Part shown: piece by piece, positions 32,572 through 60,941 of the stretch
Numbering within the stretch: position 1 is the first letter of the stretch
How the letters are laid out: every line of letters begins with the position of its first letter
Source of the DNA: a virus
Lineage: Duplodnaviria > Heunggongvirae > Uroviricota > Caudoviricetes
DNA: 64,000 bases
Virus record (IMG/VR): IMGVR_UViG_3300031419_000007
Direction: 5' to 3' (one strand)
Made by a program: the position numbers and the translations under genes
The notes under the pieces: model-generated
What the model was told of the DNA's origin: nothing
Database searches by the model: none
The model's input: only the letters and a program-made list of their open reading frames with translations

Positions 32572-32598
32572 ACCGATATGTGGATTTAGGAGACCATT

Positions 32599-41483: not shown

Positions 41484-41690
41484 TTATTCAGCACCCTTGA
41501 CGTGAATCTCCATGACATTCCCGCCGCCAGACATCGGGTAAGCGCCACGCTTTTCGCCGGCATCCATAATCGCCGCCCCGATCAGATCAAGTTTATCCTT
41601 GTCTGCGGTGACGTCGTTCGTGGTAAGCACCAGAGTGGTGATACCATTTTGTTTCCGAATTGCATCGATCTTGATCATATCAGTCCTCAA
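41484..41690 (-). CDS. Small hypothetical protein
   Basis: 68-aa ORF. Confidence 0.5.
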   Translation of the reverse strand: MRTDMIKIDAIRKQNGITTLVLTTNDVTADKDKLDLIGAAIMDAGEKRGAYPMSGGGNVMEIHVKGAE

Positions 41691-41722
41691 TTGACTTATA
41701 CTGCTCTGCCGAGTACTATACC

Positions 41723-42604
41723 GTGACTAACCTGGAGAACACAATGGGATTGACAAAATACTACGAGGATATCTGTGATCGGTATCCTATCCTCAGTCGT
41801 GAGGAAGAAAACAAACAACTGGGCATTTACTTCTCGACAACCGCCTCGGCCAAAGAGAAGTCACAGGCTCGGGATATCCTCATTTGCTCAAACCTGCGGT
41901 TTGTGTTCAAGAAAGCCAAACGTTACTCCCGTGGGAACGTCGAGCAGTTTGAAGACCTGATCGCAGCAGGCAATGAAGGCTTGCTGGCCGGTCTGGATAA
42001 GTTCGATCCAACCAGTGGGGTTCGCTTACTGAGCTACGCCGGCTGGTGGGTCATGCAACGTCAGCTAAAGGAAATGTCCCGCTGGCGCCTGGTCGCTCTT
42101 CCTGCTCAGAAGCAGCAACTCGCCACAAAGATCAAGAAGTTCGTTGAGTCTAAGGACGAGATGCCGAGCATTGAAGAACTGCGTGAAGAGTTTCCCAATG
42201 CGTCCATCAAGGATCTGCGTGAACTGAGCAAAACCCAGTACATCACATTCTATCTGGACAACATGAAGGAAACCGACACACCGATTGTCCACCCGATTGA
42301 TCAGTTGGTGGAAGAACTGGAGAACGATAGCTTGCTTACGGCTATCAATGCACTGCCTTATCCGGATAATGAAATCGTGAAGATGTCTTACGGAATCGTC
42401 GATGGGGTTGAAATGAAACCCGTTGAGATCGTTCGCGTCTTAGACAATCCGAAATATAATCAGGCGTACGTTAAGCGATCCCTGGTGAAAAGTGCTGAAG
42501 CATTGCGTCTAGTCATGGTGGACGGTTACGGGCAAACGACAACTTCCGGGTATGACGTTCCGTCCAGCGCCCTGGGGTATATCGAGAACGACCTGCCCTG
42601 GTAA
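41723..42604 (+). CDS. Sigma70-family RNA polymerase sigma factor (RpoD/RpoH-like regions 1.2-2, divergent region 4)
   Basis: LSREEE, SNLRFVFKKAKRY, DLIAAGNEGLLAGLDKFD, SYAGWWVMQ. Confidence 0.9.
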   Translation: MTNLENTMGLTKYYEDICDRYPILSREEENKQLGIYFSTTASAKEKSQARDILICSNLRFVFKKAKRYSRGNVEQFEDLIAAGNEGLLAGLDKFDPTSGVRLLSYAGWWVMQRQLKEMSRWRLVALPAQKQQLATKIKKFVESKDEMPSIEELREEFPNASIKDLRELSKTQYITFYLDNMKETDTPIVHPIDQLVEELENDSLLTAINALPYPDNEIVKMSYGIVDGVEMKPVEIVRVLDNPKYNQAYVKRSLVKSAEALRLVMVDGYGQTTTSGYDVPSSALGYIENDLPW

Positions 42605-49096: not shown

Positions 49097-50827
49097 ATGT
49101 CAGGATTGTTCGGATTGAACCCTACGCCTAGCGGCATGGCTGATAGCTACGAAGTAGGGCAGCTGCCGAGCCCGTTCTTCACGCAGGCGAATCAGTTCAT
49201 CCCACGAAGCTTCCACGATATCATCAAGTGGTCGCGCTACATCACGACTCAGTCACCTACCACGACCGAGGTGATTCGTAAGCTGTCATCTTATCCGATC
49301 ACGGACTTCATCATGGATTCCGATCAAGAGCTGACGGTCGATACGTACAAGAAGATCTTCAAGTCTGTGAAGTTCAAGGAAAAGCTGTGTGATTTTGGCT
49401 TTGACTATTACACGCTGGGTAACGTCTACGTGTCGATTTACTTCCCGATCGACCGCCATCTGCACTGCCCGAACTGCAAGTCGAGCTACGAAGTGCGTGC
49501 AGCGATGCGTTCAGGCTTTGCGGTCTTCAAGAAGTGGACATTCCAAGGCGAATGCCCGAACTGCTCGAACCAAGTGACTTACAAGGTCGTTGACACCAAA
49601 TCCCGTGACATCAACCGTATCAACCTGGTGAAGTGGAAAGCAGAGCACGTCTCGCTGAACCACAACCCGGTAACCGGCGAATCGGAGTTCTACTACACCA
49701 TCCCAGGTGACGTGAAACGCAAGATCATGATGGGTGACGCTCTGTTCCTGTCGACGGTGCCGTGGTCAATGGTTGAAGCTGTACGCTACAACAAGGACTA
49801 CATGTTTGACCCGAGCAACATCTACCACATGAAATCCATCTCGATGGGCAACATGGTTGATGGCCTGGGTATTCCACCGCTGATCTCCCACTTCGGTCTG
49901 GTGTTCTACCAGCAGATGCTGCGTAAAGCGAACGAAGCCGTGGCGGCTGAACACATGGTTCCTCTGCGTGTGCTGTTCCCACAGCAATCTTCTGCAGCGG
50001 CTGACCCGGTGGCATCCATGTCCCTGCGTGGCTTTGCGAAAAACATGCGTAACACCATGCGTAAGATGAAGTCGGATCCGAACCACATTCTGATTTCTCC
50101 AGTGCAGGTTGGTTACCAACAGCTCGGCGGCCAAGGTCGTTCACTGCTGGTTTCCCAAGAGCTGCAGTACGCTGAAGAACAACAGCTGATGTCCATGGGC
50201 GTGTCCCGTGAGCTGCTGTCCGGTACCACCAACTGGACGTCATCAACCGTCGGTCTGCGTCTGCTGGAAAACACCATGGGTAACTACGTTGGCCAGATCA
50301 GCGAAGTCATCAACTGGGTTATGGAAAAGATCGCTCAGTACCTGTCGATTGAGATCACCGACGTCAAGCTCGTGCCGTTTAAACTTACGGATAACGAGGC
50401 TCTCAAAGCGACCATGCTGGACATGTGGAAGTCGAAGATCCTCTCTGCGTCTACCCTGCTGGAAACCTTCGGCATGGACTACAACGAAGAGCTCGACAAG
50501 ATGGGTCGTGACCAAGTGTCCGTCGCCGAGAAGGAAATCGAGATCAAGGACCTGGTTGATAAAGCCATGTACCAGAAATCGAAAGGCCTCAGCAGCGATA
50601 AAGATTCATCTGGCTTTGCAGATAACCGCACCGAAGCGTACAATATCGCGAAGAAGATTCTGGCAGCCAAGTCTCCAGAAGAACAACGTGATATTCTGAT
50701 GGATCTGCAGCATACCGATCCAACTCTGTACCAGACGGTAATGGGCGTACTGAATGATATGCCTAACCCGGGCGGCCAAGAACCAGGAGAGCAAAATGAG
50801 CAAGCACAACCCGCTGGAAACCAGTAA
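49097..50827 (+). CDS. Probable portal protein with an inserted zinc ribbon
   Basis: 576 aa; ..EVIRKLSSYPI.. and DYYTLGNVYV portal-like segments; two CPNC motifs; first gene of a plus-strand block. Confidence 0.5.
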   Translation: MSGLFGLNPTPSGMADSYEVGQLPSPFFTQANQFIPRSFHDIIKWSRYITTQSPTTTEVIRKLSSYPITDFIMDSDQELTVDTYKKIFKSVKFKEKLCDFGFDYYTLGNVYVSIYFPIDRHLHCPNCKSSYEVRAAMRSGFAVFKKWTFQGECPNCSNQVTYKVVDTKSRDINRINLVKWKAEHVSLNHNPVTGESEFYYTIPGDVKRKIMMGDALFLSTVPWSMVEAVRYNKDYMFDPSNIYHMKSISMGNMVDGLGIPPLISHFGLVFYQQMLRKANEAVAAEHMVPLRVLFPQQSSAAADPVASMSLRGFAKNMRNTMRKMKSDPNHILISPVQVGYQQLGGQGRSLLVSQELQYAEEQQLMSMGVSRELLSGTTNWTSSTVGLRLLENTMGNYVGQISEVINWVMEKIAQYLSIEITDVKLVPFKLTDNEALKATMLDMWKSKILSASTLLETFGMDYNEELDKMGRDQVSVAEKEIEIKDLVDKAMYQKSKGLSSDKDSSGFADNRTEAYNIAKKILAAKSPEEQRDILMDLQHTDPTLYQTVMGVLNDMPNPGGQEPGEQNEQAQPAGNQ

Positions 50828-51077
50828 CAGCGGACAAAGCATGCCGGGGATGACCCCGGCTTTAGAAGACGTCGGGTTCAACCCTGAAGAATATGTCTAC
50901 CGCGTCGGTCACTTCACGATCGGCGGGGAAGATGATGACACCATCCAGATGGAAACGCTGCTGACCCGCAGCCTGTCTGGAGACGTCGTTGTTATCGAAC
51001 GCAAAGACTCAATCTCAGGCACCACCGGCGTCTACACCTGTGTGGTAATTTATATGGAGAAGCGACTGCATGCCTAA
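50796..51077 (+). CDS. Small hypothetical protein coupled between the portal and RNAP genes
   Basis: 93 aa from ATG 50796, RBS GGAGAG. Confidence 0.65.
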   Translation: MSKHNPLETSNSGQSMPGMTPALEDVGFNPEEYVYRVGHFTIGGEDDDTIQMETLLTRSLSGDVVVIERKDSISGTTGVYTCVVIYMEKRLHA

Positions 51078-54000
51078 GTCAGCCAGTGATTTGATCCCGA
51101 TTTTCTCATCGCCAAAGTCCATCAATGATGCGACTGACCACGCGATGCTGGACGGGATCGTTAAGCAGTTCCCAATCGAAACCGGGAAGTACACCCTCTC
51201 GGTTGTCGACCCGTACGTGGACAAGAAAGAATACACCACGGCCGACGAAAAGGACGCTATCCTCAAGTCACGCTCGCTGACCTACCCAATCCGCGGTACG
51301 CTGCTGCTGCACGACCGTGCGACCGGTAAGCTGGTGGACCGTGTGCAGAACTTCGCTTTAGCGGACACTTTCCACGTGACCAACAAGCACACGCTGCTGT
51401 ACAAAGGGAACAACTACTCGGTTGCGAACTTAATGCAGCTGCGTCCGGGCGTCTACACCCGCCGCACCAACAACGGTGAGCTTGAGACCAACATCAACAC
51501 CGGTAAGGGTGCAACGTTCTCGCTCGGTCTGGATTCCAAGACCATGCTGATCTACTTCTCGAAGATCAACGGCAAGACGCTGAACATCCCGATCGCCCCG
51601 CTGCTGACCAAAGGCTTCGGCCTGAGTGCTTCAGAAATCACCAAGTTTGTCCCACAGGACGTTTGGCAGGCGAACCTGAAGTTGACGCAGGGTAAGGAAG
51701 ACACGGCACTGAACCAGCTGTACAAGCGTCTGGTGGACCGTCGTGAGCAATCGAAGAGCGTCTCAACGGAAGAGATGGGTGTTGCACTGAAGAAGCGTCT
51801 GGGTGAAATGACCCTGGACAAGGAAACGACCGAAGTGACCCTGGGTAAATCCTTCGGTGGCATCGAGCCGGAAACCCTGCTGCGTGCCATGCACAACATC
51901 GTTCAGGTGTACTCGAAGAAGCGCCCTGAGGATAACCGTGACTCCCTGCAGTTCAAACGTGTACAGAACCTGCCAGACTTTATCGGTCGTCGTTTCGAAG
52001 AGAACAAGACGCACCAGACGGTCGGCAAAGCGTTTGACCGTATCAAGTACAACATGAGCCGCTTGAAGGAAGACGCTCCGTCACTGCGTGAAGTGATTCC
52101 GTCGAAGCCGTTCAACAAGATCTACACCGATTTCGTCATCGGTTCTCAGCTGTCGTCAACGCCGGATGAGACCAACCCAATCGAGTCGATCGAGAACGTC
52201 GGTAAAGTTACGCTGATCGCCAAAGGTGAAGGCGGGATGTCCTCTGAGCGTCAGGCCACCAGCGAGTCACGTAACGTGCACCCGTCAAACCTGGGGATCA
52301 TTGACCCGAGCCGTACCCCCGAGTCATCCTCTGCCGGCCTGGACCAGCGTTTCACCATTTCTGCCCGTCGCGACAAGGAAGGCGGCATGTATGCCCGTGC
52401 CCTCGATGCGAAAACCGGCAAGATGGTCTACTTGTCCGCCAACGAGCTGATGACCAAAGTGGTCGGGTTCCCAGACGGCATCAAGAGCGGCAAACCTCAA
52501 GTTCAAGCCCAGGTAAAGGGCGAGTTCAAGAGCGTGCCCCGCAGCGAAGTCGAGTACTGGATCCCGTCGGGCACCGACATGTACACCATCACGACTAACC
52601 TCGTGCCGTTCCTGAACGCCAACCACCCAGGTCGTCTGACCATGGCCGGTAAGGCAATCCCTCAGGCACTGTCACTGGTACACCGTGAAGCACCGCTGGT
52701 GCAAACCTTGGCGGACAACGGCCAGACCTTCGTGAAGCAAATCGGTCAGATCGTATCTACCGTGGCACCAGCGGCGGGTACCGTCGTGAAAGCTGAGCCG
52801 AACAGCATCACCATCAAGACCGAAGAAGGCAAGCAACACGTGGTCGACTTCGTGAAGAACCTGCCGTTCAACATGAAAGGTTTCCACGATGACGAAGCTC
52901 ACGGCCTGCAGGTCGGTGATCAAGTCAAAGCCGGACAGGTCCTGTCGGACAACAACTACACCAAGAACGGTGAGTTCGCGATTGGTAAAAACCTGGAAAC
53001 GGCCTACATGCCGTACAAAGGGTTCAACCACGAAGATGGTATCGTTGTGTCCCGCTCTGCGTGTGCCAAGCTGACTTCGAACCACGCTTACAAAGTCGAA
53101 TACTCGATGAGTAAGGAAACCGTGGCCGACCTCGGCAAGTACAAATCGGCCTTCGCCGGCAAGTTCACCGCTGACCAGTTGAACAAGCTGGACAACCGTG
53201 GCTTCGCTAAGCCTGGGGTGACGCTGCATTACGGTGATCCGGTTTACGCCGTCCTCGAGACCCGTACGCTGACCGAGACCGACATGGTCCTGGGCCGTCT
53301 GCACAAGACACTGGTGAACCCGTACCGTTCTGCCGCTGAGATTTGGGACCACGATGAGCCCGGTGTTGTTACCGATTGCTCAACCGACGGCTCGAAGATC
53401 CGCATCATGCTGCGTTCTGAACGCCAGCTGGAAGTCGGTGACAAGGTGACCGGTCTGCACGGTAACAAAGGTGTGGTTTCTGCCATCCTGGAAGATGACG
53501 AGATGCCGCATGCTAAGACGACCGGCAAGCCACTCGACCTGATTCTGAACCCGGCGTCCGTGACTTCACGTATCAACCTGGGCCAGGTCTTTGAAGCTGC
53601 AGCGGGCAAGATCGCTCAGAAAGACGGCCAACCGTACAAGACCAAAGTGTACGATGAAGGCAACGTCGTGAAGAACATGATGGACAAGCTGAAAGAAAAA
53701 GGCTTGAGCGACACCGATACCGTCTACGATCCGAAGACTGGTCACGTCTACGGCGACCGCGTCCTGACCGGCCCGCAGTACATCCTGAAGCTGAACAAGA
53801 CAACGGATGCCAACTACTCAGCCCGTTCAGTTGGCGGTTACGACAACAACGCCCAGCCGACCAAGGGTGGTGACGATGGTGCGAAGTCTGTGGGTTACAT
53901 GGAGTTCCTGGGCCTGCTCGGCTCAAACGCCCGTGCCAACCTGAAAGAGATCGGAACAGTCAAATCGGAAGGTGGTGATCATGCGGATACTCACGACTAC

Positions 54001-55647
54001 TGGGACAAGTTCATGCGTGGCCTCCCGCTGCCGCAGCCGAAAACGACGTTCGCAACGAAGAAATTCTTCGATTATCTGCGTGGTTCTGGGATCAACGTGT
54101 CCGAGCGTAATGGTAATCTCGTCGCGTCGCCGATGACCGACCGTGAAGTACTGGCCAACTCGTCCGGTGAAATTCATAAGCCTGACATGATCCTGGCTCG
54201 TAACGTGTCTCCGGTGAAAGGTGGCCTGTTCGACATGGCTGTAACCGGTGGTCCAGAAGGCACCAACTGGTCGCATTACAAGTTGATGGAACCGATCGTC
54301 AACCCAGTGATGGAAATGCCCGTGCGTGACCTGACTGGTCTGAACCAGGAGCAGTTCAACAACGTCGTCAGCGGTAAGTTCGGTGTCATTCGTCGTGGCC
54401 ATGGCCAGTTCGACTTAGTCGACACGCACAAAGACGACGCCGTCATCAAGCGTATCAACGTCACCGGTCTGCTGAACAAAGCAGCGTCGGACGACGGTGA
54501 AGCGCTGGTGGGCGGACACGCTATCAAGGCGATGCTCGGCGACATCCACGTTCAGGACGAACTGACCCATCTCCGTCAAGCGGTAGCCGATGAGAAATCG
54601 ACGGCGAAGCGTGACAAGATGATCAAGAAGATGAAATTCCTGGCCGGTCTGGACAAGCAAGGGTTCAGCGACCCGTCGAAAGCGTACGTGCTGCACAACA
54701 TGCCGGTTATTCCTCCGGTGATGCGTCCGTACTCTATCTCGGGTAGCCGCCTGTCCTTCGCTGACGTGAACGAGCTGTACAAACACCACATGCTGGTGAA
54801 TGGCCGTATGAAACGTCTGGATGAAGAGATCGGTATGGACATGACCTCTCCGGACATGGAAGGGATGGTTGATCTGCGTCGTGACCTGTATGAAGGCGCC
54901 AAGGCTATCATGGCCGGTGGTGAGCCGATTGACTTCCAGGCGAAGCAGAAAGGTCTGAAAGGTCTGCTCCAGCAGATCAAAGGTGATGAAGGTCCGAAGA
55001 ACGGTTTCTTCCAGAGCAAATTACTGTCTAAAAAGCAGGACTTCTCTGGCCGTGGCACCATCTACGCGGCGCCGGACGTAGGCTTCAACGAAGCGAAGAT
55101 TCCAAAGGATCAGCTGTGGGAGATGTACAAAATGCACATCATCCGCGACCTGAGCCAGAAGGGTTACGATCTCGCCGAAGCGAAGAACGCGTACGAGTCT
55201 CGTAATGATGCGGCCATGAACTCGTTCAACCACATCGTCGACACCGTACCGGTCCTGCTGAACCGTGCACCGACCCTGATGCGTACCAACATCATGGCGA
55301 TGCGTCCGATTCCTTCCGAAGGGAAGACGATTGGTCTGAACATTCTGCACCTGCCAGGCTACGCAGCGGACTACGACGGCGACGCCCTGTCAATGTACGT
55401 GCCGATGACGCCGGAAGCTGTGAAGGAAGCTCGTGAGAAGTTAATGCCGAGCAACCACCTGCACGACGCCCGCCGCGGATTCGGTAACCCGATGTTCGCC
55501 CCAGGTCACGAAGCCATCCTCGGTTCCGTACACCTGACGCAGCCGGACATGGAGCAGAAGGTCCACGAGTTCAAGACTGAGGAGGAAGCTCTCACAGCCT
55601 TGAAGGAAGGGAAGATCAAATCGAACACCCCGATCAAGATCGGCTAA
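51070..55647 (+). CDS. Multisubunit RNA polymerase: beta fused to the N-half of beta' (includes the catalytic DxDGD)
   Basis: beta motifs RNVHPSNLGIIDPSRTPE, VPFLN, YKGFNHEDGI, GDKVTGLHGNKGVV, LNPASVTSRINLGQ, GPQYILKL; beta' motifs SSGEI..GGLFD, PVIPP.MRP, DVNELY, LLSKKQDFSGRG, LLNRAPTL, YAADYDGD (55369..55383). Confidence 0.95.
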   Translation: MPKSASDLIPIFSSPKSINDATDHAMLDGIVKQFPIETGKYTLSVVDPYVDKKEYTTADEKDAILKSRSLTYPIRGTLLLHDRATGKLVDRVQNFALADTFHVTNKHTLLYKGNNYSVANLMQLRPGVYTRRTNNGELETNINTGKGATFSLGLDSKTMLIYFSKINGKTLNIPIAPLLTKGFGLSASEITKFVPQDVWQANLKLTQGKEDTALNQLYKRLVDRREQSKSVSTEEMGVALKKRLGEMTLDKETTEVTLGKSFGGIEPETLLRAMHNIVQVYSKKRPEDNRDSLQFKRVQNLPDFIGRRFEENKTHQTVGKAFDRIKYNMSRLKEDAPSLREVIPSKPFNKIYTDFVIGSQLSSTPDETNPIESIENVGKVTLIAKGEGGMSSERQATSESRNVHPSNLGIIDPSRTPESSSAGLDQRFTISARRDKEGGMYARALDAKTGKMVYLSANELMTKVVGFPDGIKSGKPQVQAQVKGEFKSVPRSEVEYWIPSGTDMYTITTNLVPFLNANHPGRLTMAGKAIPQALSLVHREAPLVQTLADNGQTFVKQIGQIVSTVAPAAGTVVKAEPNSITIKTEEGKQHVVDFVKNLPFNMKGFHDDEAHGLQVGDQVKAGQVLSDNNYTKNGEFAIGKNLETAYMPYKGFNHEDGIVVSRSACAKLTSNHAYKVEYSMSKETVADLGKYKSAFAGKFTADQLNKLDNRGFAKPGVTLHYGDPVYAVLETRTLTETDMVLGRLHKTLVNPYRSAAEIWDHDEPGVVTDCSTDGSKIRIMLRSERQLEVGDKVTGLHGNKGVVSAILEDDEMPHAKTTGKPLDLILNPASVTSRINLGQVFEAAAGKIAQKDGQPYKTKVYDEGNVVKNMMDKLKEKGLSDTDTVYDPKTGHVYGDRVLTGPQYILKLNKTTDANYSARSVGGYDNNAQPTKGGDDGAKSVGYMEFLGLLGSNARANLKEIGTVKSEGGDHADTHDYWDKFMRGLPLPQPKTTFATKKFFDYLRGSGINVSERNGNLVASPMTDREVLANSSGEIHKPDMILARNVSPVKGGLFDMAVTGGPEGTNWSHYKLMEPIVNPVMEMPVRDLTGLNQEQFNNVVSGKFGVIRRGHGQFDLVDTHKDDAVIKRINVTGLLNKAASDDGEALVGGHAIKAMLGDIHVQDELTHLRQAVADEKSTAKRDKMIKKMKFLAGLDKQGFSDPSKAYVLHNMPVIPPVMRPYSISGSRLSFADVNELYKHHMLVNGRMKRLDEEIGMDMTSPDMEGMVDLRRDLYEGAKAIMAGGEPIDFQAKQKGLKGLLQQIKGDEGPKNGFFQSKLLSKKQDFSGRGTIYAAPDVGFNEAKIPKDQLWEMYKMHIIRDLSQKGYDLAEAKNAYESRNDAAMNSFNHIVDTVPVLLNRAPTLMRTNIMAMRPIPSEGKTIGLNILHLPGYAADYDGDALSMYVPMTPEAVKEAREKLMPSNHLHDARRGFGNPMFAPGHEAILGSVHLTQPDMEQKVHEFKTEEEALTALKEGKIKSNTPIKIG

Positions 55648-55680
55648 AAAGAAACCCCAGGGAGACCTGGGGTTTTTTCT
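55646..55680. terminator. Bidirectional terminator
   Basis: AAAAAG AAACCCCAGG-GAGA-CCTGGGGTTT TTTCT. Confidence 0.85.
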
Positions 55681-55681
55681 T

Positions 55682-56284
55682 TTAGAACCATTTAATGTTC
55701 TGTTCGTACATTTCGTTCACGCGATCTTGAATCTTATCGGCGTGCTTGTCGACGTACAGTGCGGTGAGATCCGTTCGAAGAAATTTGAAGTAACGATCCG
55801 CGAATTCTAGCGGGATGAAATACACCACCATCTCACGGTCGTTCTGCCACACTAAGCGGGGGCGGAATGGGATCATCACGGTATTCTTCAAGGATGGCTT
55901 CAAGCTGCACGCCACCCGTAAATCATAGTGAATCCCATGAGCTGCTTGCTCGAGCTGTACTGCACAGACCCAGACCCGACCGTTCTCTTTGTACGTCGAG
56001 AGGCGGAACCTGCGGTCAAACTCAACATCAACGACCTGTGGTATATTCATGTCCCCGACGTTAAACGTACGGTCCAGAACCACATGTTTAATGAGCTCGC
56101 GACGATAAAGCCCATCCCAATCGGTTTCCCGAAGGCTCGCCATCAAAGGGAGCAGTTCATCCAACGGTATGCCGCTGGGAGTTTGATACGTTTTGGCAAG
56201 TTCATCTACCAGTATGCCTTCCATGTTTACGTAGAATTGGTCTTCTACCTTAACTACATCAATTTCTTTGCCAAAGAAGTTCAT
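55682..56284 (-). CDS. Hypothetical protein with two Bro-N/antirepressor-like N-terminal repeats
   Basis: IDVVKVEDQFYVNMEGI and LSTYKENGRVWVCAVQL. Confidence 0.45.
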   Translation of the reverse strand: MNFFGKEIDVVKVEDQFYVNMEGILVDELAKTYQTPSGIPLDELLPLMASLRETDWDGLYRRELIKHVVLDRTFNVGDMNIPQVVDVEFDRRFRLSTYKENGRVWVCAVQLEQAAHGIHYDLRVACSLKPSLKNTVMIPFRPRLVWQNDREMVVYFIPLEFADRYFKFLRTDLTALYVDKHADKIQDRVNEMYEQNIKWF

Positions 56285-56601
56285 ACGATTTTCCTGTGAT
56301 CCTTAAGTATTTCTGTAATCAGTGCATCGGGTAAAGCGTGTTCCAATTTTTCGTTCAGGGTTTGCAGATCCTCCAAGCGGATGCAGGTGGTGTGGAACTC
56401 CCGCGTACCCCAGGATATGAGGACGGTCTTCGGGGATATTTTGGCAGACTTCAAAGCGGTCTTGACTATCTCGCCGCCGACGTTGGCCAAGTTGCGGATG
56501 GAGCTTACTGTGATGAAAGGACGTTTACGCTCACGGACCAGTTGTAAACCACGAAAGGACATGATGTTCTGTCCTATGGTACTGCTCTTCACATGTCTCA
56601 T
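56281..56601 (-). CDS. Bro-N/antirepressor-like protein
   Basis: LQLVRERKRPFITVSSIRNLANV. Confidence 0.45.
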   Translation of the reverse strand: MRHVKSSTIGQNIMSFRGLQLVRERKRPFITVSSIRNLANVGGEIVKTALKSAKISPKTVLISWGTREFHTTCIRLEDLQTLNEKLEHALPDALITEILKDHRKIV

Positions 56602-56625
56602 AATAGGAAAAGGCCCCAGCGGGCC

Positions 56626-56961
56626 TTAGTGTTTGAGTGGAGTGAACTCCGGAAGCGAAGACCAGAAGCGGAGCAAGACCTCTTCTAAGGCTTCGATGAA
56701 CAGGTCCCGTTGATCCGGGTAATCCAGTCCATTATCGGGCATGGCTCTCAGTGCTGCCATGACGTCCGGCACCAGGCTGTAATGGCCAAGGGTGAACGCT
56801 CTATCCGATTCCGAAGTGATGATGTTCGAGTACAGCGGAAGTGGTGCCACGTTTTCACGGACACGCAGAGTTTTCCAAAGCAGAACGACATCGACGTAGA
56901 CTTCCTTGTTGAACTTCACAGTACTCACGGGAAGGGTGTTAATGTACAGAATATAGACCAT
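56626..56961 (-). CDS. Bro-N/antirepressor-like protein
   Basis: VSTVKFNKEVYVDVVLLWKTL. Confidence 0.45.
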   Translation of the reverse strand: MVYILYINTLPVSTVKFNKEVYVDVVLLWKTLRVRENVAPLPLYSNIITSESDRAFTLGHYSLVPDVMAALRAMPDNGLDYPDQRDLFIEALEEVLLRFWSSLPEFTPLKH

Positions 56962-56983
56962 GGGCGGTACCTCCGCCCTGATT

Positions 56984-57133
56984 TTACTTGAGGATCGTTG
57001 GACCCTTTAAGTTATTGTCTTTGTAGTATTTACGGACACGACGGACACGTTGATGGTCTTTTCCGGCTACCCAGCAGAGGTATCCTGCCAGTGCAAGAAT
57101 GACCGCGATAAGGATTATGTCACCTGGTTCCAT
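56984..57133 (-). CDS. 49-aa single-TM peptide (not in the ORF track)
   Basis: MEPGDIILIAVILALAGYLCWVAGKDHQRVRRVRKYY...; RBS GGAG. Confidence 0.6.
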   Translation of the reverse strand: MEPGDIILIAVILALAGYLCWVAGKDHQRVRRVRKYYKDNNLKGPTILK

Positions 57134-57157
57134 AGTTACTCCAAAATGAATGTGTTT

Positions 57158-57184
57158 GTGTACACTTTCCTTATACCCTAAAAT
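57158..57184. promoter_or_regulatory. Back-to-back divergent promoter motifs: minus GGTATAAG-N4-GTGTACAC and plus TAAAAT
   Basis: gtgtacac tttc cttatacc c taaaat. Confidence 0.65.
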
Positions 57185-57208
57185 AAAAGCGGAATGGAGG
57201 AGATCACC

Positions 57209-57364
57209 ATGAACCCAAATACAGACTCTTTAGAGCAAGGTATCCGCGTCGGGGTAACCCTTGGATCACTCGTTGCTCTTCGTGCGGCCTTCAAGGGCTC
57301 ACGTCAAGCCGGCAAAGGTATCTACCGCCGGGCAGTAAAACTGAGAGGTAAGAATGGACGATAA
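57209..57364 (+). CDS. 51-aa basic peptide (not in the ORF track)
   Basis: MNPNTDSLEQGIRVGVTLGSLVALRAAFKGSRQAGKGIYRRAVKLRGKNGR; RBS GGAGG. Confidence 0.6.
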   Translation: MNPNTDSLEQGIRVGVTLGSLVALRAAFKGSRQAGKGIYRRAVKLRGKNGR

Positions 57365-58019
57365 AAGCCAAGTCATTGAAGCTTACCGTCAACCGGAAAC
57401 GAAGATTATCCTGAAGTCGATGACCGACCCGCGGCCGCACAAGATCGCTTCGGCGTACTTGAAAGCCAAGGTTCGGTTACTCTTAGGGCGATCGCATGAG
57501 AAGAAGGCACTCTGGACCCGACCGATTGACGACATGTCTTTCCTGGCCGTCGACGCTCTGCAAGGCGGAGGCGCCCTGGGAGGCTCTCAGTTGGGACGTC
57601 GTGTCGCAGCAATGGTAGCGCCCCGGTCTATGCAGATGCAGGCCGTGGGGATGATTGGGGGCGCTCTGGCAGGGTCTTCTCTGGCCGGTGCCGTCGGTAG
57701 GAAGATCATCGGCGGAGCGATCAATGCGGCGGACCAAGCCGGCGTGCTCCCGGAAGCGTTGACACACGTCAACATCATGAGTGAACGCCAGTCGAAGTAC
57801 TCGAACATTGGGTCGGCAGCGGGGATTGCCATGGCGGTGCCATTGTCTCTGCGTCTGCTCTTGAAGCCAGGAACTTCGCCGATTGCCGCGGTGGCCGGAA
57901 GCTTAGGATCTGCTTACCTGTTGTCCCGTGCTGGGAACGCGGCTGGGAACGTTGCGGGTTACTACGCGGACAAACGTTCCGATGTAATCGGTGACACGGC
58001 AAGCGATCCGGACGCTTGA
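57354..58019 (+). CDS. Gly/Ala-rich glycine-zipper protein (possible virion/ejection protein)
   Basis: GGALGG, MIGGALAGSSLAG, IGSAAG, AGSLGSA hydrophobic Gly-zipper segments. Confidence 0.6.
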   Translation: MDDKSQVIEAYRQPETKIILKSMTDPRPHKIASAYLKAKVRLLLGRSHEKKALWTRPIDDMSFLAVDALQGGGALGGSQLGRRVAAMVAPRSMQMQAVGMIGGALAGSSLAGAVGRKIIGGAINAADQAGVLPEALTHVNIMSERQSKYSNIGSAAGIAMAVPLSLRLLLKPGTSPIAAVAGSLGSAYLLSRAGNAAGNVAGYYADKRSDVIGDTASDPDA

Positions 58020-58260
58020 TACGCCGATACGGTATGTACGTGGAAAGTCACACCCCTCTATAGCTCTCTCTGGTGGGTATAGATACTCTCTATATATCTC
58101 TAAAAAAGCCTTAGTAAGTAGTTTATAGTATAGGGGAACAGTTACACTATAATAGGTGTCAAGAGTGACGTACCAAACGTATCAACGTACCAACTGCCCT
58201 TAAAGCCTTGTGCCACAAGGGTTTTCTCTGATACGTCGTTGGAACATTTGGCGTATCAGA
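58020..58260. repeat. Non-coding AT-rich element, copy 2 of the dispersed repeat
   Basis: Core 58085..58151 matches 21348..21414; flanking CGTA(T/C)C arrays; tctgatacg...cgtatcaga inverted repeat near the right end. Confidence 0.9.
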
Positions 58261-58264
58261 ATGT

Positions 58265-58288
58265 AAAAAGGGGAGGTGACTCCCCTTT
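58265..58288 (-). terminator. Terminator
   Basis: AAAGGGGAG-loop-CTCCCCTTTTT on the minus strand. Confidence 0.75.
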
Positions 58289-58294
58289 GTTTTA

Positions 58295-58657
58295 TCAAAA
58301 CGCCTTGGCCATCAGGTTAGGCAATGTGGTCATACAGGTTCTTTGACGGTCCAGTTTGGACATGTCTTTGAGCTTTACCTTGGATGCATAGAGCGACAGG
58401 TTGTCCAGAGCGATCCACAGCTCTTTCTTCCCGTCCGGAGTTTGGATAACTTTTGCGTGTGGTGTCACGTGCTTGTTGACTTGTAGTGCCGCCTTTGAAG
58501 TATTAACCACCAGCTCGGTGATTTGCTCTTCGTAGTCCAGTCCCAAGAATTCGCTCAGTGAACGAACAGAGACCCAAGTGGTACCCTCGGTGTGTAACAG
58601 ATCAATTGGTGAAGCTTGTACTTGAATAGTTTTGGTCAGCATAGTTTTTGCGAGCAT
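58295..58657 (-). CDS. P22 antirepressor N-terminal-domain-like protein
   Basis: EGTTWVSVRSLSEFLGLDYEEQ...KELWIALDNLSLY. Confidence 0.65.
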   Translation of the reverse strand: MLAKTMLTKTIQVQASPIDLLHTEGTTWVSVRSLSEFLGLDYEEQITELVVNTSKAALQVNKHVTPHAKVIQTPDGKKELWIALDNLSLYASKVKLKDMSKLDRQRTCMTTLPNLMAKAF

Positions 58658-58775
58658 GGTATGCTCCCTCTGTGAATGTATGAGAAGTTGGTTATTTCTT
58701 ACTACTTTGCTTATACCAGGATAGCCCTTCTATGAGGGCTCAATTAGCCAAACATCTCGCCTAATCTCCTCGGTA

Positions 58776-59051
58776 CTACGTCGTGCGTTTCCTTACACAC
58801 AAGTCCCACAGTTCCTGTGGTGCTTCAGACTTCCACTCCGTGAAGCCTTGCGTGCCCTCCTGGATCCAAGCCCAGTTAGGGACGTGCTCTTTAAAGAGGG
58901 TCTTCGAGTAGACCCGGATGCGGCCAAAGAGTAGAATATCTTTGACGAAATACTGCATGCGACGAAGCTCCTTATCGATGTATCCCTGCATCGGAAGTTC
59001 ATACTCCCGAGCAAAAGCGCGATGTCGTACCACGAACAGCTTACTGAACAT
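58776..59051 (-). CDS. Hypothetical protein
   Basis: 91-aa ORF with RBS GGAGGA. Confidence 0.6.
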   Translation of the reverse strand: MFSKLFVVRHRAFAREYELPMQGYIDKELRRMQYFVKDILLFGRIRVYSKTLFKEHVPNWAWIQEGTQGFTEWKSEAPQELWDLCVRKRTT

Positions 59052-59076
59052 AAATCCTCCTTAGTTCTGTATATTA

Positions 59077-59091
59077 CTTATACCCTAAAAT
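59077..59091. promoter_or_regulatory. Back-to-back divergent promoter motifs CTTATACC-C-TAAAAT
   Basis: At the strand switch between 58776..59051 (minus) and the beta'-C gene (plus). Confidence 0.6.
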
Positions 59092-59099
59092 AGGTTCAG

Positions 59100-60941
59100 T
59101 TGATCAACGAAAAAGGTGACATGATGACTCAAATTATCACTCCCGGGGCGCTTCTCGTTAAGAGCATGCTCCCTGAAGCTTCAAAGCAACACTTTGACCC
59201 ACACGTGGTGTTAAACAAGAACGGCGTTAAAGACCTGATTGCAAACGTGATCACTCACGGCGGTGATAAAGCAGCGGACACGATCTCGGACCTGTCTCAC
59301 CTGTTCTTCCACACTGCAACCGATCACGGTTACTCGACGCCGCTGTCCGACTATTACAACGATTCCGACGAACGTACGGCATTACTGAAAGAATACGAAA
59401 CGGCCGTCAACCACGTGAACGACAAGGAAGGCCTGTCAGAACGTGAGAAGCGTGAACAACTGTCCGAGCTCGGCAGCAAGTACGGCGACATCCTGACGAA
59501 CCAGAACCTGAAGTACCTGATGTCCCGCAAATCGACGGCGGCACTGATGGCACAGACCGGTGCCCGTGGTAACCCAAGTCAGCTGCAGCAGGGTACGTCT
59601 TCACCGATTCAGTCAAAGCGCATCGACGGTACGCCAATCCCACTGGCGATCACCCACTCGTTCGCAGAAGGCTTGACGCCAGCGGAGCACTTAGCCATGT
59701 CCTACTGGGGCCGTAGTAACACCGTTTCTGCCCAGCTCTCGACGTCGAAACCAGGTGACATGTTCAAATCGATCACGCCTAACCTGTATCACGAAGTGGT
59801 GACCGAGACTGACTGCCATACTCACAATGGTGTCGTTGAGCCGATCTCTCAGAAGAAGCGTGTGCTGTACCATTACGAAGCCGGCACCGACCGTCTGATC
59901 GATGAGCGTTACTTCAACGATCTGAAACACGACGGCGCCAAAAACGTGAAAGTCCGTAACACCATGACGTGCCAGGCCAAAGAAGGCGTGTGCCAGAAGT
60001 GCTACGGTCTGGATTCCCGCGGCAAACTCCCAGAAATCGGTGAGAACGTCGGTGTGATCGCGGCCCAATCGGCGTCAGAAGTTCTGACCCAGATGATCCT
60101 CGGTACCAAGCATGATGCGAAGTCCGGTAAGTCTGTTAACCCGTTCGACCAGACGTCTAACTTGCTGATCAACCAGGAGAAATTCCCGGATAAGGCAACG
60201 ATCTCTGAGACCAACGGTGAAGTGACGCACATTGAGACCACGTCTCTGGGTGATGCCAAAGTGCACGTGTCCGGTAAGGAATACTTCATCCCGAACTCAC
60301 AGGACGTGATCGTCGGCGAAGGTCACAAAGTGAAGATCGGTCAGCCACTGTCTACCGGTACCGTGAACCCACGTGAACTCGTGGCGCTCCGTGGCCTGGG
60401 TGAAGGACGTCGTTACATGTCCAACAAGCTGTCTGAGATTTATGGCGGCGGCATGGACCCACGTCACTTCGACCTGATCGCCAAGAACCTGATCAAGTAC
60501 GTTAAAGTGCGTGAAGCAGGAGAGACCGGATACATGCCAGGCCAGGTCGTTTCTGTGAACCACATCCAGGACGAACTGCAGAAGGACCAAGAGCTGCTCC
60601 CAATCGAGCGTGCTGCCGGTAAACAACTGGCACGCCCGGTCCTGGAATTAACCCCAGGCACCGTACTCGATGCGAACCACTTGCAGTATCTGAACAAGCA
60701 TGGCGTAACTGACGTTCACACGTCTCGTTCCGGCCTGGTTGTCGATCCGCTGGTTCCCGGGATCAAAACGGTCAAGCTGAACGACACCAACTGGATCTCC
60801 CGTCTGGCGTTCAAACAGATCGGTAAGACCCTGAGTGAAGCAGCTGCAACGGGCATGGAGTCCGCGGCCACCAGCACCGACCCGATCGCTCCGTACATCC
60901 TCGGTGGCGCATTCGGTGAAGGCAGCAACGGGAGATACTAA
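59100..60941 (+). CDS. RNA polymerase beta' C-terminal half; start probably 59121
   Basis: MAQTGARG, SFAEGLTP, DCHT, TCQAKEGVCQKCYG (Zn site), IGENVGVIAAQSASEVLTQMILGTKH (trigger loop), RHFDLI, NWISRLAF. Confidence 0.93.
   Translation: MINEKGDMMTQIITPGALLVKSMLPEASKQHFDPHVVLNKNGVKDLIANVITHGGDKAADTISDLSHLFFHTATDHGYSTPLSDYYNDSDERTALLKEYETAVNHVNDKEGLSEREKREQLSELGSKYGDILTNQNLKYLMSRKSTAALMAQTGARGNPSQLQQGTSSPIQSKRIDGTPIPLAITHSFAEGLTPAEHLAMSYWGRSNTVSAQLSTSKPGDMFKSITPNLYHEVVTETDCHTHNGVVEPISQKKRVLYHYEAGTDRLIDERYFNDLKHDGAKNVKVRNTMTCQAKEGVCQKCYGLDSRGKLPEIGENVGVIAAQSASEVLTQMILGTKHDAKSGKSVNPFDQTSNLLINQEKFPDKATISETNGEVTHIETTSLGDAKVHVSGKEYFIPNSQDVIVGEGHKVKIGQPLSTGTVNPRELVALRGLGEGRRYMSNKLSEIYGGGMDPRHFDLIAKNLIKYVKVREAGETGYMPGQVVSVNHIQDELQKDQELLPIERAAGKQLARPVLELTPGTVLDANHLQYLNKHGVTDVHTSRSGLVVDPLVPGIKTVKLNDTNWISRLAFKQIGKTLSEAAATGMESAATSTDPIAPYILGGAFGEGSNGRY

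What the first reader, a model, noticed from the sequence alone, without database searches (positions are those of the whole stretch)
51070..60941. Phage RNA polymerase with a rearranged architecture: beta+beta'N fusion and a separate beta'C
The 1525-aa ORF runs through recognisable bacterial beta motifs from N- to C-terminus. Near 54100 it continues without a stop into beta' regions up to the catalytic ADYDGD. The rest of beta' (bridge-helix region, Zn site, trigger loop GTKH, C-terminus) is a separate 613-aa gene 3.4 kb downstream. Established: a beta-beta' fusion occurs in Helicobacter/Wolbachia, a beta' split after the catalytic region occurs in cyanobacteria/plastids (RpoC1/RpoC2), and phiKZ-type phage RNAPs are split into 4-5 smaller chains. 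Inference: this is a two-chain, bacterial-like phage RNAP combining both features. No alpha or omega gene is visible in the window.
Basis: partly seen in the sequence, partly recalled or inferred. Interest (0 to 1): 0.82.

Follow-up and report, generated by a model that had tools for sequence, protein, structure and literature searches.

The report
Two-chain phage RNA polymerase, fused and split
This Arash-like Salmonella-type phage encodes a bacterial-type RNA polymerase core as two proteins (all of beta joined to the first 40% of beta-prime, and the rest of beta-prime on a second gene); the layout is real and shared by hundreds of phages, but I found no paper that describes it.

Summary
ORF 51070-55647 (1525 aa) is a complete, insertion-free bacterial beta. 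It runs in frame, through a 5-residue joint, into beta-prime up to about 90 aa past the catalytic AADYDGD. The gene at 59121-60941 (606 aa; 613 from an upstream TTG) carries the rest of beta-prime, and the two pieces abut with nothing missing.

It is not a missed stop. An independent 97.6%-identical contig differs at 134 codons of the long ORF, 131 of them synonymous, including all 15 around the joint. The joint occurs in over 900 clusters (50% identity).

The nearest relative is the published Salmonella phage Arash (86% aa). Its paper calls the genes beta and beta-prime, does not mention the fusion, and finds both proteins abundant in virion preparations.

- The break is not at the cyanobacterial or the AR9-type site.
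- The beta-prime N-terminal zinc ribbon is deleted in every family member aligned.
- Single-chain beta-beta-prime relatives branch basally, so this layout looks like a fission of a fused ancestor.
- Arash's genome has one RNAP set, no alpha or omega, and two sigma-like genes.

Injection with the genome and use of the phage sigma factors are inferred. This scan has found the same layout before on many other DNAs.

The parts
49097..50827 (+). Portal gene that heads the gene string ending in the RNAP large chain. A 107-aa ORF (50754-51077) links them and overlaps the RNAP start by 8 nt.
   Evidence: PHROG portal hit. The same order, portal - small ORF - RNAP, is seen in Arash gp204-206, Vibrio phage D69 and metagenomic loci L007 and L008.
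51070..55647 (+). Large RNAP chain, 1525 aa: complete beta fused in frame to the N-terminal ~40% of beta-prime.
   Evidence: It is 86% identical to Arash gp206. Against L010 it differs at 131 synonymous and 3 nonsynonymous codons.
51070..54114 (+). Beta module (aa 1-~1015).
- It lacks the E. coli lineage-specific inserts (E. coli beta 220-301, 344-368, 936-1047, 1126-1156).
- It keeps the active-site lysine motif GDKVTGLHGNKGV (aa 790-802), a segment aligning to the flap-tip helix region, and a diverged rifampicin-pocket segment (aa 358-383).
   Evidence: MAFFT alignment with E. coli rpoB/rpoC and 17 family members; coordinates.
54088..54132 (+). Beta/beta-prime junction. The beta C-terminal GINV is followed by five residues (SERNG) and then the beta-prime segment NLVASP. 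E. coli beta-prime residues 1-18 have no counterpart.
   Evidence: The family alignment shows the same tight joint in all 17 members shown. In the AF2 model the junction region has block-mean pLDDT mostly 90-95, with one block at 75. All 15 codon differences from L010 at aa 950-1100 are synonymous.
54220..54285 (+). Site where the beta-prime N-terminal zinc ribbon (E. coli 64-95; C70, C72, C85, C88) is deleted. The beta-prime part of this chain has no cysteine at all.
   Evidence: Cysteine positions: only C665 and C770 in the whole chain.
55363..55383 (+). Catalytic Mg-binding motif AADYDGD (E. coli NADFDGD, with N458 replaced by Ala). It is preceded by NRAPTL (55261-55278). The chain ends 87 aa later at ...PIKIG, which aligns to E. 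coli beta-prime ~552.
   Evidence: Across the 122 proteins held (the family members plus this window's own two), the first motif residue varies (A 73, N 39, G 5, S 3, none 2). The tail after the motif has a median of 94 aa.
55652..55675 (.). GC-rich perfect hairpin between the convergent RNAP gene and the minus-strand 200-aa gene. It is a likely bidirectional terminator.
   Evidence: Terminator scan: 10-bp stem with a T run.
55682..59051 (.). 3.47-kb block separating the two RNAP genes.
- It holds five minus-strand ORFs and one plus-strand ORF (57354-58019, homolog of Arash virion protein gp213), all without family assignment.
- It contains three copies of the minus-strand GGTATAAG motif.
   Evidence: The block differs in relatives: 0.64 kb in Vibrio phage D69, one Prim-Pol gene in L007, 4.8 kb in Arash.
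59121..60941 (+). Small RNAP chain, 606 aa: the C-terminal ~60% of beta-prime.
- It starts (MMTQIITPG...) where E. coli beta-prime ~572 aligns.
- Bridge helix: nt 59700-59774.
- Second zinc site, with the chain's only four cysteines: nt 59805-60002.
- Trigger loop with its His, no SI3 insert: nt 60051-60113.
- C-terminal clamp segment: nt 60789-60812.
   Evidence: It is 85% identical to Arash gp216. Against L010 it differs at 40 synonymous and 1 nonsynonymous codons.
60941..62359 (+). SNF2-family ATPase/helicase, 472 aa. Its ATG overlaps the beta-primeC stop codon (TAATG).
   Evidence: Pfam SNF2-rel_dom and Helicase_C; overlap seen. The Arash homolog gp217 was found in virion preparations at 100% coverage.
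41744..42604 (+). Sigma-70-family factor, 286 aa, 8.5 kb upstream of the RNAP. It is the candidate specificity subunit.
   Evidence: Pfam Sigma70_r2, E=1.5e-10. A sigma gene lies 8-9 kb upstream in Arash, D69 and L007 as well.

Best explanation
Shown:
- The window encodes a complete bacterial-type (two double-psi-beta-barrel) RNA polymerase catalytic core in two polypeptides.
- Chain 1 (1525 aa) is a minimal beta covalently joined, by a five-residue link, to beta-prime residues ~19-552 (E. coli numbering). It carries segments aligning to the clamp-helix (sigma-docking), lid and rudder regions, and the Mg-binding DYDGD loop. It lacks the N-terminal zinc ribbon.
- Chain 2 (606 aa) is beta-prime ~572 to the end. 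It carries the bridge helix, the second zinc site, the trigger loop and the C-terminal clamp.
- The two chains abut exactly, so they must assemble non-covalently into one enzyme. There is no room for an intein or a missing exon.

Inferred:
- The beta-to-beta-prime tether takes over part of the assembly role that the alpha dimer and omega play in cells. No alpha or omega gene is detectable in the closest complete genome.
- The enzyme takes its promoter specificity from the phage's own sigma-70-family factors.
- It is made with the virion genes, carried in or with the particle and delivered at infection. Early phage transcription would then not need host RNA polymerase.
- Newly made enzyme plus a second, non-virion sigma (the one in this window) would serve later gene classes.
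- Evolutionarily, the layout arose by fission of a single-chain beta-beta-prime phage enzyme just after the catalytic barrel. Unrelated genes later accumulated in the gap.
For: Architecture and completeness:
- Pfam and PDB sequence matches.
- Residue-level alignment to E. coli beta and beta-prime shows the beta lysine motif, NRAPTL plus AADYDGD, bridge helix, four-Cys zinc site, trigger-loop His and C-terminal clamp. Segments align across the flap-tip, clamp-helix, lid and rudder regions.
- The two chains abut: P0001 ends at residue ~564 and P0002 starts at ~566 of chain 8dkc_D, and at ~573/576 of 9n9p_D. Single-chain relatives read straight through the split point.

Real and translated:
- 131 synonymous against 3 nonsynonymous codon differences from an independent contig, and 15 of 15 synonymous across the joint.
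- The Arash homologs were detected by mass spectrometry at 100% (128 peptides) and 89% coverage.

Conserved family:
- 713 proteins at E<=1e-5 in the 90%-identity collection. The 120 best listed are mostly 1,440-1,620 aa and nearly all carry both Rpb2 and Rpb1 domains.
- The tail after DxDGD has a median of 94 aa.
- The joint region hits 907 clusters (50% identity) at E<=1e-10.
- At least 500 IMG/VR stretches encode a relative.

One RNAP set, no alpha or omega: whole-genome Pfam searches of Arash.

Sigma partnership:
- A sigma-70-family gene lies 8-9 kb upstream in four members at 35-86% identity.
- Sigma and RNAP homologs sit on contigs of identical length, taken as the same contigs.
- A segment aligning to the beta-prime clamp-helix region is retained.

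Virion delivery:
- Arash gp206, gp216, sigma gp10 and helicase gp217 are abundant in purified particles. gp196, the homolog of this window's sigma, is not listed.
- The gene follows the portal gene in all relatives examined.

Fission origin: in trees rooted on one and on four bacterial sequences, single-chain forms are a basal grade. The two-chain forms fall in one derived clade, with support 85 and 99.
Against: - No activity, assembly or sigma-binding data exist for any member.
- Virion packaging rests on one proteomics table. That table also lists ribonucleotide reductases, RNA ligases and 88 'structural' proteins. The authors themselves allow that abundant enzymes may co-purify.
- The absence of alpha and omega is by Pfam models only. 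Host alpha or omega could be recruited.
- The trigger loop and bridge helix are diverged: E. coli R933 is not conserved, and N458 of NADFDGD is Ala.
- The sigma in this window has no Pfam-detectable region 4.
- Both trees were fast-search builds without a mixture model (FastTree; IQ-TREE LG+G4, short search), with long-branch warnings. One single-chain sequence (P0149) nests inside the two-chain clade.
Confidence: 0.75

Rival explanations
1. The polymerase is real but is not an injected enzyme. Host RNA polymerase, perhaps redirected by the phage sigmas, transcribes early genes. The phage enzyme is made later and serves only middle or late transcription. Its presence in particle preparations is co-purification.
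For: - The Arash virion table also contains clearly non-structural enzymes, and the authors raise this possibility themselves.
- The sigma gene in this window is preceded by a near-consensus sigma-70 promoter, TTGACT-17 nt-TACTAT, which host holoenzyme could use.
Against: - gp206 has the highest spectral count of all Arash proteins, and gp216 is among the top five.
- The gene is tied to the portal gene across relatives that share only 35% identity.
- Only one RNAP set exists in Arash.
Confidence: 0.25
2. The two phage chains are not self-sufficient. They assemble with host alpha dimer and/or omega, or with an unrecognised phage scaffold protein, into a hybrid enzyme.
For: - All cellular RNAPs need the alpha-like platform.
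- The beta and beta-prime modules here are much closer to bacterial ones than phiKZ/AR9 enzymes are. Matches to bacterial rpoBC (host-genome contigs filed in the phage collection) reach 27-28% identity with E-values of 1e-40 to 1e-53. AR9-type YerA41 reaches 24% and 1e-25.
- The absence of alpha in the phage genome is equally what a hybrid model predicts.
Against: - phiKZ and AR9 non-virion RNAPs are active without alpha or omega and do not stably bind the host subunits (reviews).
- A covalent beta-beta-prime tether is a plausible substitute for the platform.
- A virion-delivered enzyme would have to carry host proteins.
Confidence: 0.15
3. The phage sigma factors do not serve the phage polymerase. 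They redirect host core RNA polymerase, as in RNAP-less jumbo phages. The phage enzyme uses another, unrecognised specificity factor, as phiKZ gp68 or AR9 gp226 do.
For: - Reviews state that phage multisubunit RNAPs lack sigma homologs and that sigma-encoding jumbo phages lack RNAPs.
- The zinc ribbon that contributes to holoenzyme and promoter contacts in bacteria is deleted.
Against: - Sigma and the fused RNAP co-occur and keep their relative position across deep divergence.
- A sigma (gp10) is found with the RNAP in Arash particles.
- Segments aligning to the clamp-helix and flap-tip regions are retained.
Confidence: 0.2
4. The layout is an artefact or a dead gene: a missed stop or frameshift at the joint, a pseudogene pair, or one gene interrupted by an intron or intein and rejoined after expression.
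For: - Relatives do carry mobile insertions. There is a homing endonuclease inside the gene in Vibrio phages D181 and D148, and LAGLIDADG domains in P0078 and P0095.
Against: - Strong purifying selection acts in this frame across the joint and in both genes.
- The chain end is conserved in about 110 members.
- The intervening 3.47 kb holds genes on both strands and three copies of a minus-strand promoter-like motif.
- The two chains end and start at adjoining homologous positions with no extra residues for a split intein.
- Arash gp206 and gp216 were detected as separate proteins.
Confidence: 0.02

Closest known systems
Salmonella phage Arash gp206 + gp216 (OQ632216; PMC10585845), and Vibrio phages D69, D148 and D181
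   Same: - Same two-chain layout, same joint and same chain ends.
- Same neighbours: portal upstream, and a sigma gene 8-9 kb upstream. In Arash the SNF2 helicase also overlaps the beta-primeC stop.
- Identity is 86% and 85% aa to Arash, and 57% and 54% to D69.
   Different: - This is a different phage: about 82% nt identity over the 66% of the region that aligns.
- The block between the two genes is 3.47 kb here, 4.8 kb in Arash and 0.64 kb in D69.
- The Arash paper annotates the genes as beta and beta-prime without noting the fusion. The D69 genes are annotated as hypothetical.
phiKZ-type and AR9-type jumbo-phage multisubunit RNAPs (virion and non-virion sets)
   Same: - Phage-encoded two-barrel RNAPs with no alpha or omega.
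- Beta-prime is cut after the catalytic barrel.
- One set is virion-packaged.
   Different: - In those phages beta is cut into 2-3 chains and never fused to beta-prime. There are two paralogous sets per genome and no sigma homolog.
- Those enzymes are far more diverged: AR9-type YerA41 is 24% identical over half the query.
- The YerA41 beta-primeN chain runs about 43 aa further than the chain here. Its beta-primeC starts about 100 aa later.
Cyanobacterial and plastid RpoC1 (gamma) / RpoC2 split
   Same: Beta-prime is divided into two genes in the stretch after the catalytic barrel.
   Different: - Gamma extends about 67 residues beyond the phage chain's end, and RpoC2 starts about 16-23 residues after the phage beta-primeC start.
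- Beta is a separate subunit.
- The zinc ribbon, alpha and omega are present.
Helicobacteraceae and Wolbachia RpoB-RpoC fusion
   Same: The beta C-terminus is covalently joined to the beta-prime N-terminus (cited in PMC7483510 from Zakharova 1999 and Lane & Darst 2010).
   Different: - Those are full-length cellular beta-beta-prime chains that work with alpha, omega and host sigma.
- Here the joint drops beta-prime residues 1-18, the zinc ribbon is lost, and beta-prime is cut again.
mReC, the multisubunit-RNAP-encoding Caudovirales (Weinheimer & Aylward 2020, PMC7481178)
   Same: Uncultured large tailed phages whose beta and beta-prime are still alignable with bacterial ones.
   Different: - The supplementary-table rows I read list separate, adjacent beta (1011-1377 aa) and beta-prime (903-1005 aa) ORFs.
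- Their filter required a beta-prime hit of at least 800 aa with a NADxDGD motif. This window's protein fails that filter because its motif is AADYDGD.
- I did not test whether the two groups are sister clades.
crAss-like phage gp66 and P23-45 tape-measure-fused RNAPs
   Same: Virion-delivered two-barrel RNAPs with both barrels in one chain.
   Different: Those enzymes are so diverged that COG/Pfam beta and beta-prime models do not detect them. The enzyme here scores E=1e-55 on Pfam Rpb2_6.

Membership tests
Bacterial-type multisubunit RNAP catalytic core (beta/beta-prime) | Beta double-psi barrel with the two active-site lysines (E. coli K1065, K1073) | tested here: met
   GDKVTGLHGNKGV at aa 790-802 aligns to E. 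coli GDKMAGRHGNKGV. Pfam Rpb2_6 E=1.8e-55.
Bacterial-type multisubunit RNAP catalytic core (beta/beta-prime) | Beta-prime barrel with the Mg-binding DxDGD triad (NADFDGD) | tested here: met
   AADYDGD at aa 1432-1438. The three Asp are invariant in the 24-sequence alignment A1. The Asn is replaced by Ala.
Bacterial-type multisubunit RNAP catalytic core (beta/beta-prime) | Bridge helix, trigger loop, second zinc site and C-terminal clamp of beta-prime | tested here: met
   All align in the 606-aa chain. Its only four Cys match E. coli C814, C888, C895 and C898. The trigger-loop His is kept and SI3 is absent.
Bacterial-type multisubunit RNAP catalytic core (beta/beta-prime) | Beta-prime N-terminal zinc ribbon (C70, C72, C85, C88) | tested here: not met
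   E. coli residues 64-95 have no counterpart in this protein or in any of the 17 family members aligned. There is no Cys in the beta-prime part.
Bacterial-type multisubunit RNAP catalytic core (beta/beta-prime) | Alpha dimer and omega encoded alongside | tested here: not met
   PF01000, PF01193 and PF01192 found nothing at E<=1 in the whole Arash genome, while all 14 control genomes rang. The window itself was not searched exhaustively.
Arash-like fused/split phage RNAP family | Direct beta to beta-prime joint: ...G(I/V)x(V/I), a short link, then beta-prime (A/G)xP(M/L)TD | tested here: met
Arash-like fused/split phage RNAP family | Large chain ends ~90 aa after DxDGD, and a separate ~600-aa beta-primeC follows | tested here: met
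   The tail here is 94 aa and the family median is 94. Beta-primeC homologs are found in Arash, D69 and L007.
Arash-like fused/split phage RNAP family | Gene follows the portal gene, with a sigma-70-family gene a few kb upstream | tested here: met
phiKZ/AR9-type jumbo-phage RNAP | Beta divided into two or three polypeptides | tested here: not met
   Beta is intact and fused here.
phiKZ/AR9-type jumbo-phage RNAP | Two paralogous sets (virion and non-virion) and no sigma homolog | tested here: not met
   The Arash genome has one Rpb2_6 hit, one Rpb1_2 hit and two Sigma70_r2 hits.
Cyanobacterial/plastid split beta-prime | Break at the gamma/RpoC2 boundary | tested here: not met
   Residue 505 of the 510-aa query aligns to gamma residue 554 of 626. 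RpoC2 residue 12 aligns to residue 35 of the 613-aa ORF.
Virion-packaged RNAP (functional class) | Protein present in purified particles and active on entry | not testable with these tools
   The only evidence is the proteomics of the relative Arash. No data exist for this phage, and there is no activity assay.

The most novel reading that the evidence does not exclude
This family is a self-contained, sigma-dependent phage RNA polymerase. It would be a two-chain (ancestrally one-chain) bacterial-type core that needs no alpha or omega because beta and beta-prime are tethered. It would use phage-encoded sigma-70-family factors for promoter choice and be carried into the cell with the genome, making infection independent of, and insensitive to inhibitors of, host RNA polymerase. 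That would be the first phage multisubunit RNAP shown to work with a true sigma factor, against the current textbook split of 'phage RNAP without sigma' versus 'phage sigma without RNAP'.
Probability: 0.4. Interest if true: 0.8.

Novelty: new variant of a known kind. Interest (0 to 1): 0.6.

Why it matters
If the two chains alone form an active core, this would be among the simplest bacterial-type RNA polymerases: two proteins, no alpha, no omega and no lineage inserts. It would be a natural experiment on what the alpha platform and the beta-prime zinc ribbon are for.

Pairing with bona fide sigma factors would contradict the generalisation in recent reviews. These state that phage multisubunit RNAPs lack sigma and that sigma-encoding large phages lack RNAPs.

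The family is large: more than 900 clusters at 50% identity. It contains one-, two- and three-piece versions of the same enzyme, so it records how a polymerase gene is fused and then broken apart.

There is a cultured, published member on Salmonella (Arash), so the biochemistry is directly testable. Practical angles are an orthogonal sigma-programmable transcription system and phage growth that may ignore rifampicin.

Tried and rejected
- Complex prediction of the beta-primeN part (alignment A1) with the phage sigma (alignment A2) gave no answer: score 0.01 against a mark of 0.32, and the controls were not run. This says nothing either way.
I used codon-level comparison with an independent contig instead.
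- The genome search 'own' is unavailable because no genome is held for this window. Alpha, omega and a second RNAP were therefore sought in the Arash record instead.
- The PF00940 (T7-type RNAP) search of Arash was empty, but the control genomes did not ring either, so it is uninformative.
- I first read the ACTTATAC/CTTATACC motif upstream of beta-primeC as its promoter. All 13 copies turn out to point along the minus strand (GGTATAAG), and most are followed by a minus-strand RBS and ATG. The copy at 59077 therefore belongs to the divergent gene 58776-59051, not to beta-primeC.
- The Foldseek search of the junction model returned only ordinary bacterial beta-prime chains, and no fused chain appeared among the top 50 listed.
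- Matching my loci to the mReC contig list failed because the naming schemes differ.
- Six literature searches for a description of the fusion found none. The library lacks most subscription journals, so absence is not proof.

Full report
**1. The observation**

The window has an ATG-initiated ORF at 51070-55647 (1525 aa) and an ORF at 59100-60941 (613 aa from TTG), both on the plus strand.

- Pfam finds Rpb2 domains 2, 3 and 6 at aa 147-933 of the long protein (Rpb2_6 E=1.8e-55).
- It finds Rpb1 domains 1 and 2 at aa 1175-1456 of the same protein, and Rpb1_5 in the short protein.
- phmmer against all PDB chains aligns aa 67-1014 with cyanobacterial beta residues 70-1060 of 1104.
- It aligns aa 1140-1494 with E. 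coli beta-prime 173-518, and the short protein with beta-prime from about residue 571 to about 1100 or beyond.

The one correction concerns the start of the second gene. An ATG at 59121 has a good ribosome-binding site (AAAGGTGA) and gives 606 aa, the length annotated for the Arash homolog.

**2. Anatomy at residue level**

I aligned the protein and 16 diverse relatives with E. coli RpoB+RpoC (coordinates).

Beta part:
- It lacks the E. coli lineage-specific inserts (E. coli 220-301, 344-368, 936-1047, 1126-1156).
- It keeps the active-site lysine motif (aa 790-802) and a segment aligning to the flap-tip helix region.
- The rifampicin-pocket segment (aa 358-383) differs from E. coli at Q513, F514, S522, H526, R529 and S531. 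I read this, by inference only, as likely drug insensitivity.

Joint and beta-primeN:
- The beta C-terminal GINV (aa 1007-1010) is followed by five residues and then by the beta-prime segment that aligns to E. coli residues ~19 onward.
- Beta-prime residues 1-18 are gone, and so is the whole N-terminal zinc ribbon (E. coli 64-95). This holds in every family member aligned, and the beta-prime part has no cysteine.
- Segments aligning to the lid, clamp-helix and rudder regions, and the NRAPTL motif, are present.
- The catalytic motif is AADYDGD (aa 1432-1438). Across the 122 proteins held (the family members plus this window's own two), the first residue is Ala in 73, Asn in 39, Gly in 5 and Ser in 3, and two have no motif.
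- The chain ends at ...PIKIG, which aligns to E. coli beta-prime ~552.

Beta-primeC:
- The second chain starts MMTQIITPG..., aligning to E. coli ~572.
- E. coli has a 19-residue hairpin between these two points. Other bacterial chains show the two phage chains abutting within 1-3 residues (8dkc_D 564/566, 9n9p_D 573/576).
- Single-chain relatives (P0113, P0114) read straight through this point.
- The second chain has the bridge helix, the second zinc site (its only four cysteines), a trigger loop with the catalytic His and no SI3 insert, and the C-terminal clamp.

An AlphaFold2 model of aa 770-1340 gives block-mean pLDDT of mostly 90-95 through the junction region, with one block at 75. It shows the beta C-terminal helix leading into a short hairpin. 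Its beta-prime half matches bacterial beta-prime chains in Foldseek.

**3. It is not an artefact**

- IMG/VR contig L010 (a different metagenome) is 97.6% identical over 12.2 kb, with only three gap openings.
- The 1525-codon frame is open in L010. It differs at 134 codons, of which 131 are synonymous.
- All 15 differences at aa 950-1100, across the joint, are synonymous.
- The second gene shows 40 synonymous and 1 nonsynonymous difference.
- An identical protein is also on record from Logan assemblies (P0003).
- In Arash the homologs were seen by mass spectrometry at 100% coverage (128 unique peptides) and 89% coverage.
- The two chains leave no room for a split intein. The 3.47 kb between them carries ORFs on both strands and three copies of a minus-strand promoter-like motif.

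**4. Relatives**

- The nearest phage is Salmonella phage Arash: 86% and 85% aa, with about 82% nt identity over two thirds of the region.
- Next come Vibrio phages D69, D148 and D181 at 57%.
- Beyond these, the 90%-identity protein collection gave 713 hits at E<=1e-5. The best 120 are mostly 1,440-1,620 aa and nearly all combine Rpb2 and Rpb1 domains.
- In the roughly 110 two-chain-sized members, the tail after DxDGD has a median of 94 aa (range 90-163), so the chain end is conserved.
- A 241-aa query spanning the joint hit 907 clusters (50% identity) at E<=1e-10.
- Of the best 150, about 80 are single-chain forms with a long tail after the motif (those with a complete N-terminus are mostly 2,000-2,600 aa). 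About 36 are of the two-chain type, and the rest include short first pieces of three-piece forms.
- At least 500 IMG/VR stretches encode a relative.

The spacing between the two genes varies:
- 0.64 kb in D69.
- One inserted Prim-Pol gene in L007.
- 3.47 kb here.
- 4.8 kb in Arash.
- None in single-chain L006.

**5. Origin**

Bacterial rpoBC contigs that are misfiled in the phage collection served as outgroups.

- A FastTree of 117 sequences was rooted on E. coli, and a quick IQ-TREE of 56 sequences was rooted on four bacteria.
- Both make the phage family monophyletic and place single-chain forms as a basal grade.
- Both put the two-chain forms in one derived clade, with support 85 and 99. 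A single-chain sequence (P0113) is sister to that clade.
- Three-piece forms appear several times. One single-chain sequence (P0149) nests among two-chain ones.

The simplest reading is that the beta-beta-prime fusion is ancestral to the family and the layout here is a later fission. Both trees were fast-search builds without a mixture model (FastTree; IQ-TREE LG+G4, short search), with long-branch warnings, so this is suggestive and not settled.

The best PDB matches are Firmicute and cyanobacterial enzymes rather than enterobacterial ones. This argues against recent capture from the host.

**6. Comparison of the split site**

- Cyanobacterial gamma continues about 67 residues past the end of the phage chain. 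RpoC2 begins about 16-23 residues after the start of the phage beta-primeC.
- In the AR9-type phage YerA41, the beta-primeN chain runs about 43 residues further, and beta-primeC starts about 100 residues later.

All three breaks lie in the stretch after the catalytic barrel but at different points, so they are best seen as independent events.

**7. How it probably works**

Shown: a complete catalytic core in two chains that must associate non-covalently.

Background from the Arash genome:
- There is only one beta and one beta-prime catalytic domain.
- There is no Pfam-detectable alpha or omega, while all control genomes rang.
- There are two sigma-70 region-2 hits, gp196 and a weaker one in gp10.

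Inferred, point by point:
- The covalent tether substitutes for part of the alpha/omega assembly role.
- The phage sigma-70-family factors supply specificity. A sigma gene sits 8-9 kb upstream of the RNAP in this window, Arash, D69 and L007. About half of the 120 best sigma relatives listed also have a recognisable region 4. Several lie on contigs of the same length as contigs carrying the fused RNAP, which I take to be the same contigs.
- The enzyme is carried with the particle. Arash gp206, gp216, sigma gp10 and the SNF2 helicase gp217 are abundant in virion preparations. gp196, the homolog of this window's sigma, is not listed. This suggests one sigma travels with the enzyme and the other acts later.

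The caveat is serious. The same table lists ribonucleotide reductases and RNA ligases, and the authors allow for co-purification.

**8. Literature**

- The Arash paper calls the genes beta and beta-prime and does not mention a fusion.
- The jumbo-phage RNAP review, the comparative jumbo-phage study and a 2026 review describe only the split phiKZ/AR9 enzymes. They state that these lack sigma, while sigma-encoding phages lack RNAPs.
- The mReC study lists separate beta and beta-prime ORFs. Its filter (at least 800 aa, NADxDGD) would exclude this window's AADYDGD protein.
- I found no description of the beta+beta-primeN / beta-primeC layout in six searches. The library lacks most subscription journals.
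- This scan has already reported the same layout, and its one- and three-piece variants, on dozens of other DNAs.

**9. Verdict**

The finding is real and the reading is right, with the refinements above. This window is a close relative of a published phage, so it is another member of an existing but undescribed family. Measured against what is in print, the family is a new variant of phage multisubunit RNA polymerases.

Noticed in passing
window, 13 sites: 7339, 9873, 19723, 24641, 26706, 32557, 44488, 48535, 48601, 49026, 57170, 58710, 59077: GGTATAAG occurs 13 times, always on the minus strand, where 0.5 copies are expected. The extended form is GGTATAAG-N4/5-GTGTAAAC. In most cases a minus-strand RBS and ATG follow 10-45 nt later. 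It looks like a -10-only promoter class, reminiscent of T4 late TATAAATA, for the minus-strand replication and small-membrane-protein genes.
   Followed up: partly
window 32564-32572, 57177-57185, 59084-59092: C(C/T)TAAAATA sits directly after three of those motifs on the plus strand (0.27 expected), 35-65 nt before plus-strand gene starts including beta-primeC. It may be a divergent plus-strand -10 element.
   Followed up: no
window 41690-41718: The sigma gene (ATG 41744) is preceded by TTGACT-17 nt-TACTAT, a near-consensus sigma-70 promoter.
   Followed up: no
window 60941-62359: An SNF2-family ATPase starts on the last base of the beta-primeC stop codon (TAATG). Its Arash homolog gp217 is as abundant in particle preparations as beta-primeC. 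It may be an RNAP accessory ATPase (compare RapA, or vaccinia NPH-I). Its partnership with the RNAP was not tested.
   Followed up: no
window 55363-55365 (aa 1432): The Asn of NADFDGD (E. coli N458, which contacts the substrate ribose) is Ala here. Across the 122 proteins held (the family members plus this window's own two), it is Ala in 73, Asn in 39, Gly in 5 and Ser in 3, and two have no motif. The effect on NTP/dNTP discrimination is unknown.
   Followed up: partly
Vibrio phages D181 and D148 (hits H3, H4); proteins P0078, P0095: Relatives carry mobile insertions in the RNAP gene. There is a homing endonuclease splitting the gene in D181 and D148, and LAGLIDADG (PF14528) domains in two metagenomic proteins.
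   Followed up: no
L007 14362-15807; protein P0149: In one relative a LigD-type Prim-Pol gene sits exactly between beta-beta-primeN and beta-primeC. Its nearest neighbour in the tree, P0149 (2002 aa), is single-chain, which may be a re-fusion.
   Followed up: no
L091, L092, L093 (records OR844998, CAKLQH020000005, OR846602): These GenBank 'phage' records are bacterial chromosome pieces. The annotated one (CAKLQH020000005) carries nusG-rplKAJL-rpoBC. The two unannotated ones yield full-length rpoB- and rpoC-sized ORFs. They explain the Staphylococcus, Enterococcus, Listeria and Acinetobacter 'phage' hits.
   Followed up: partly
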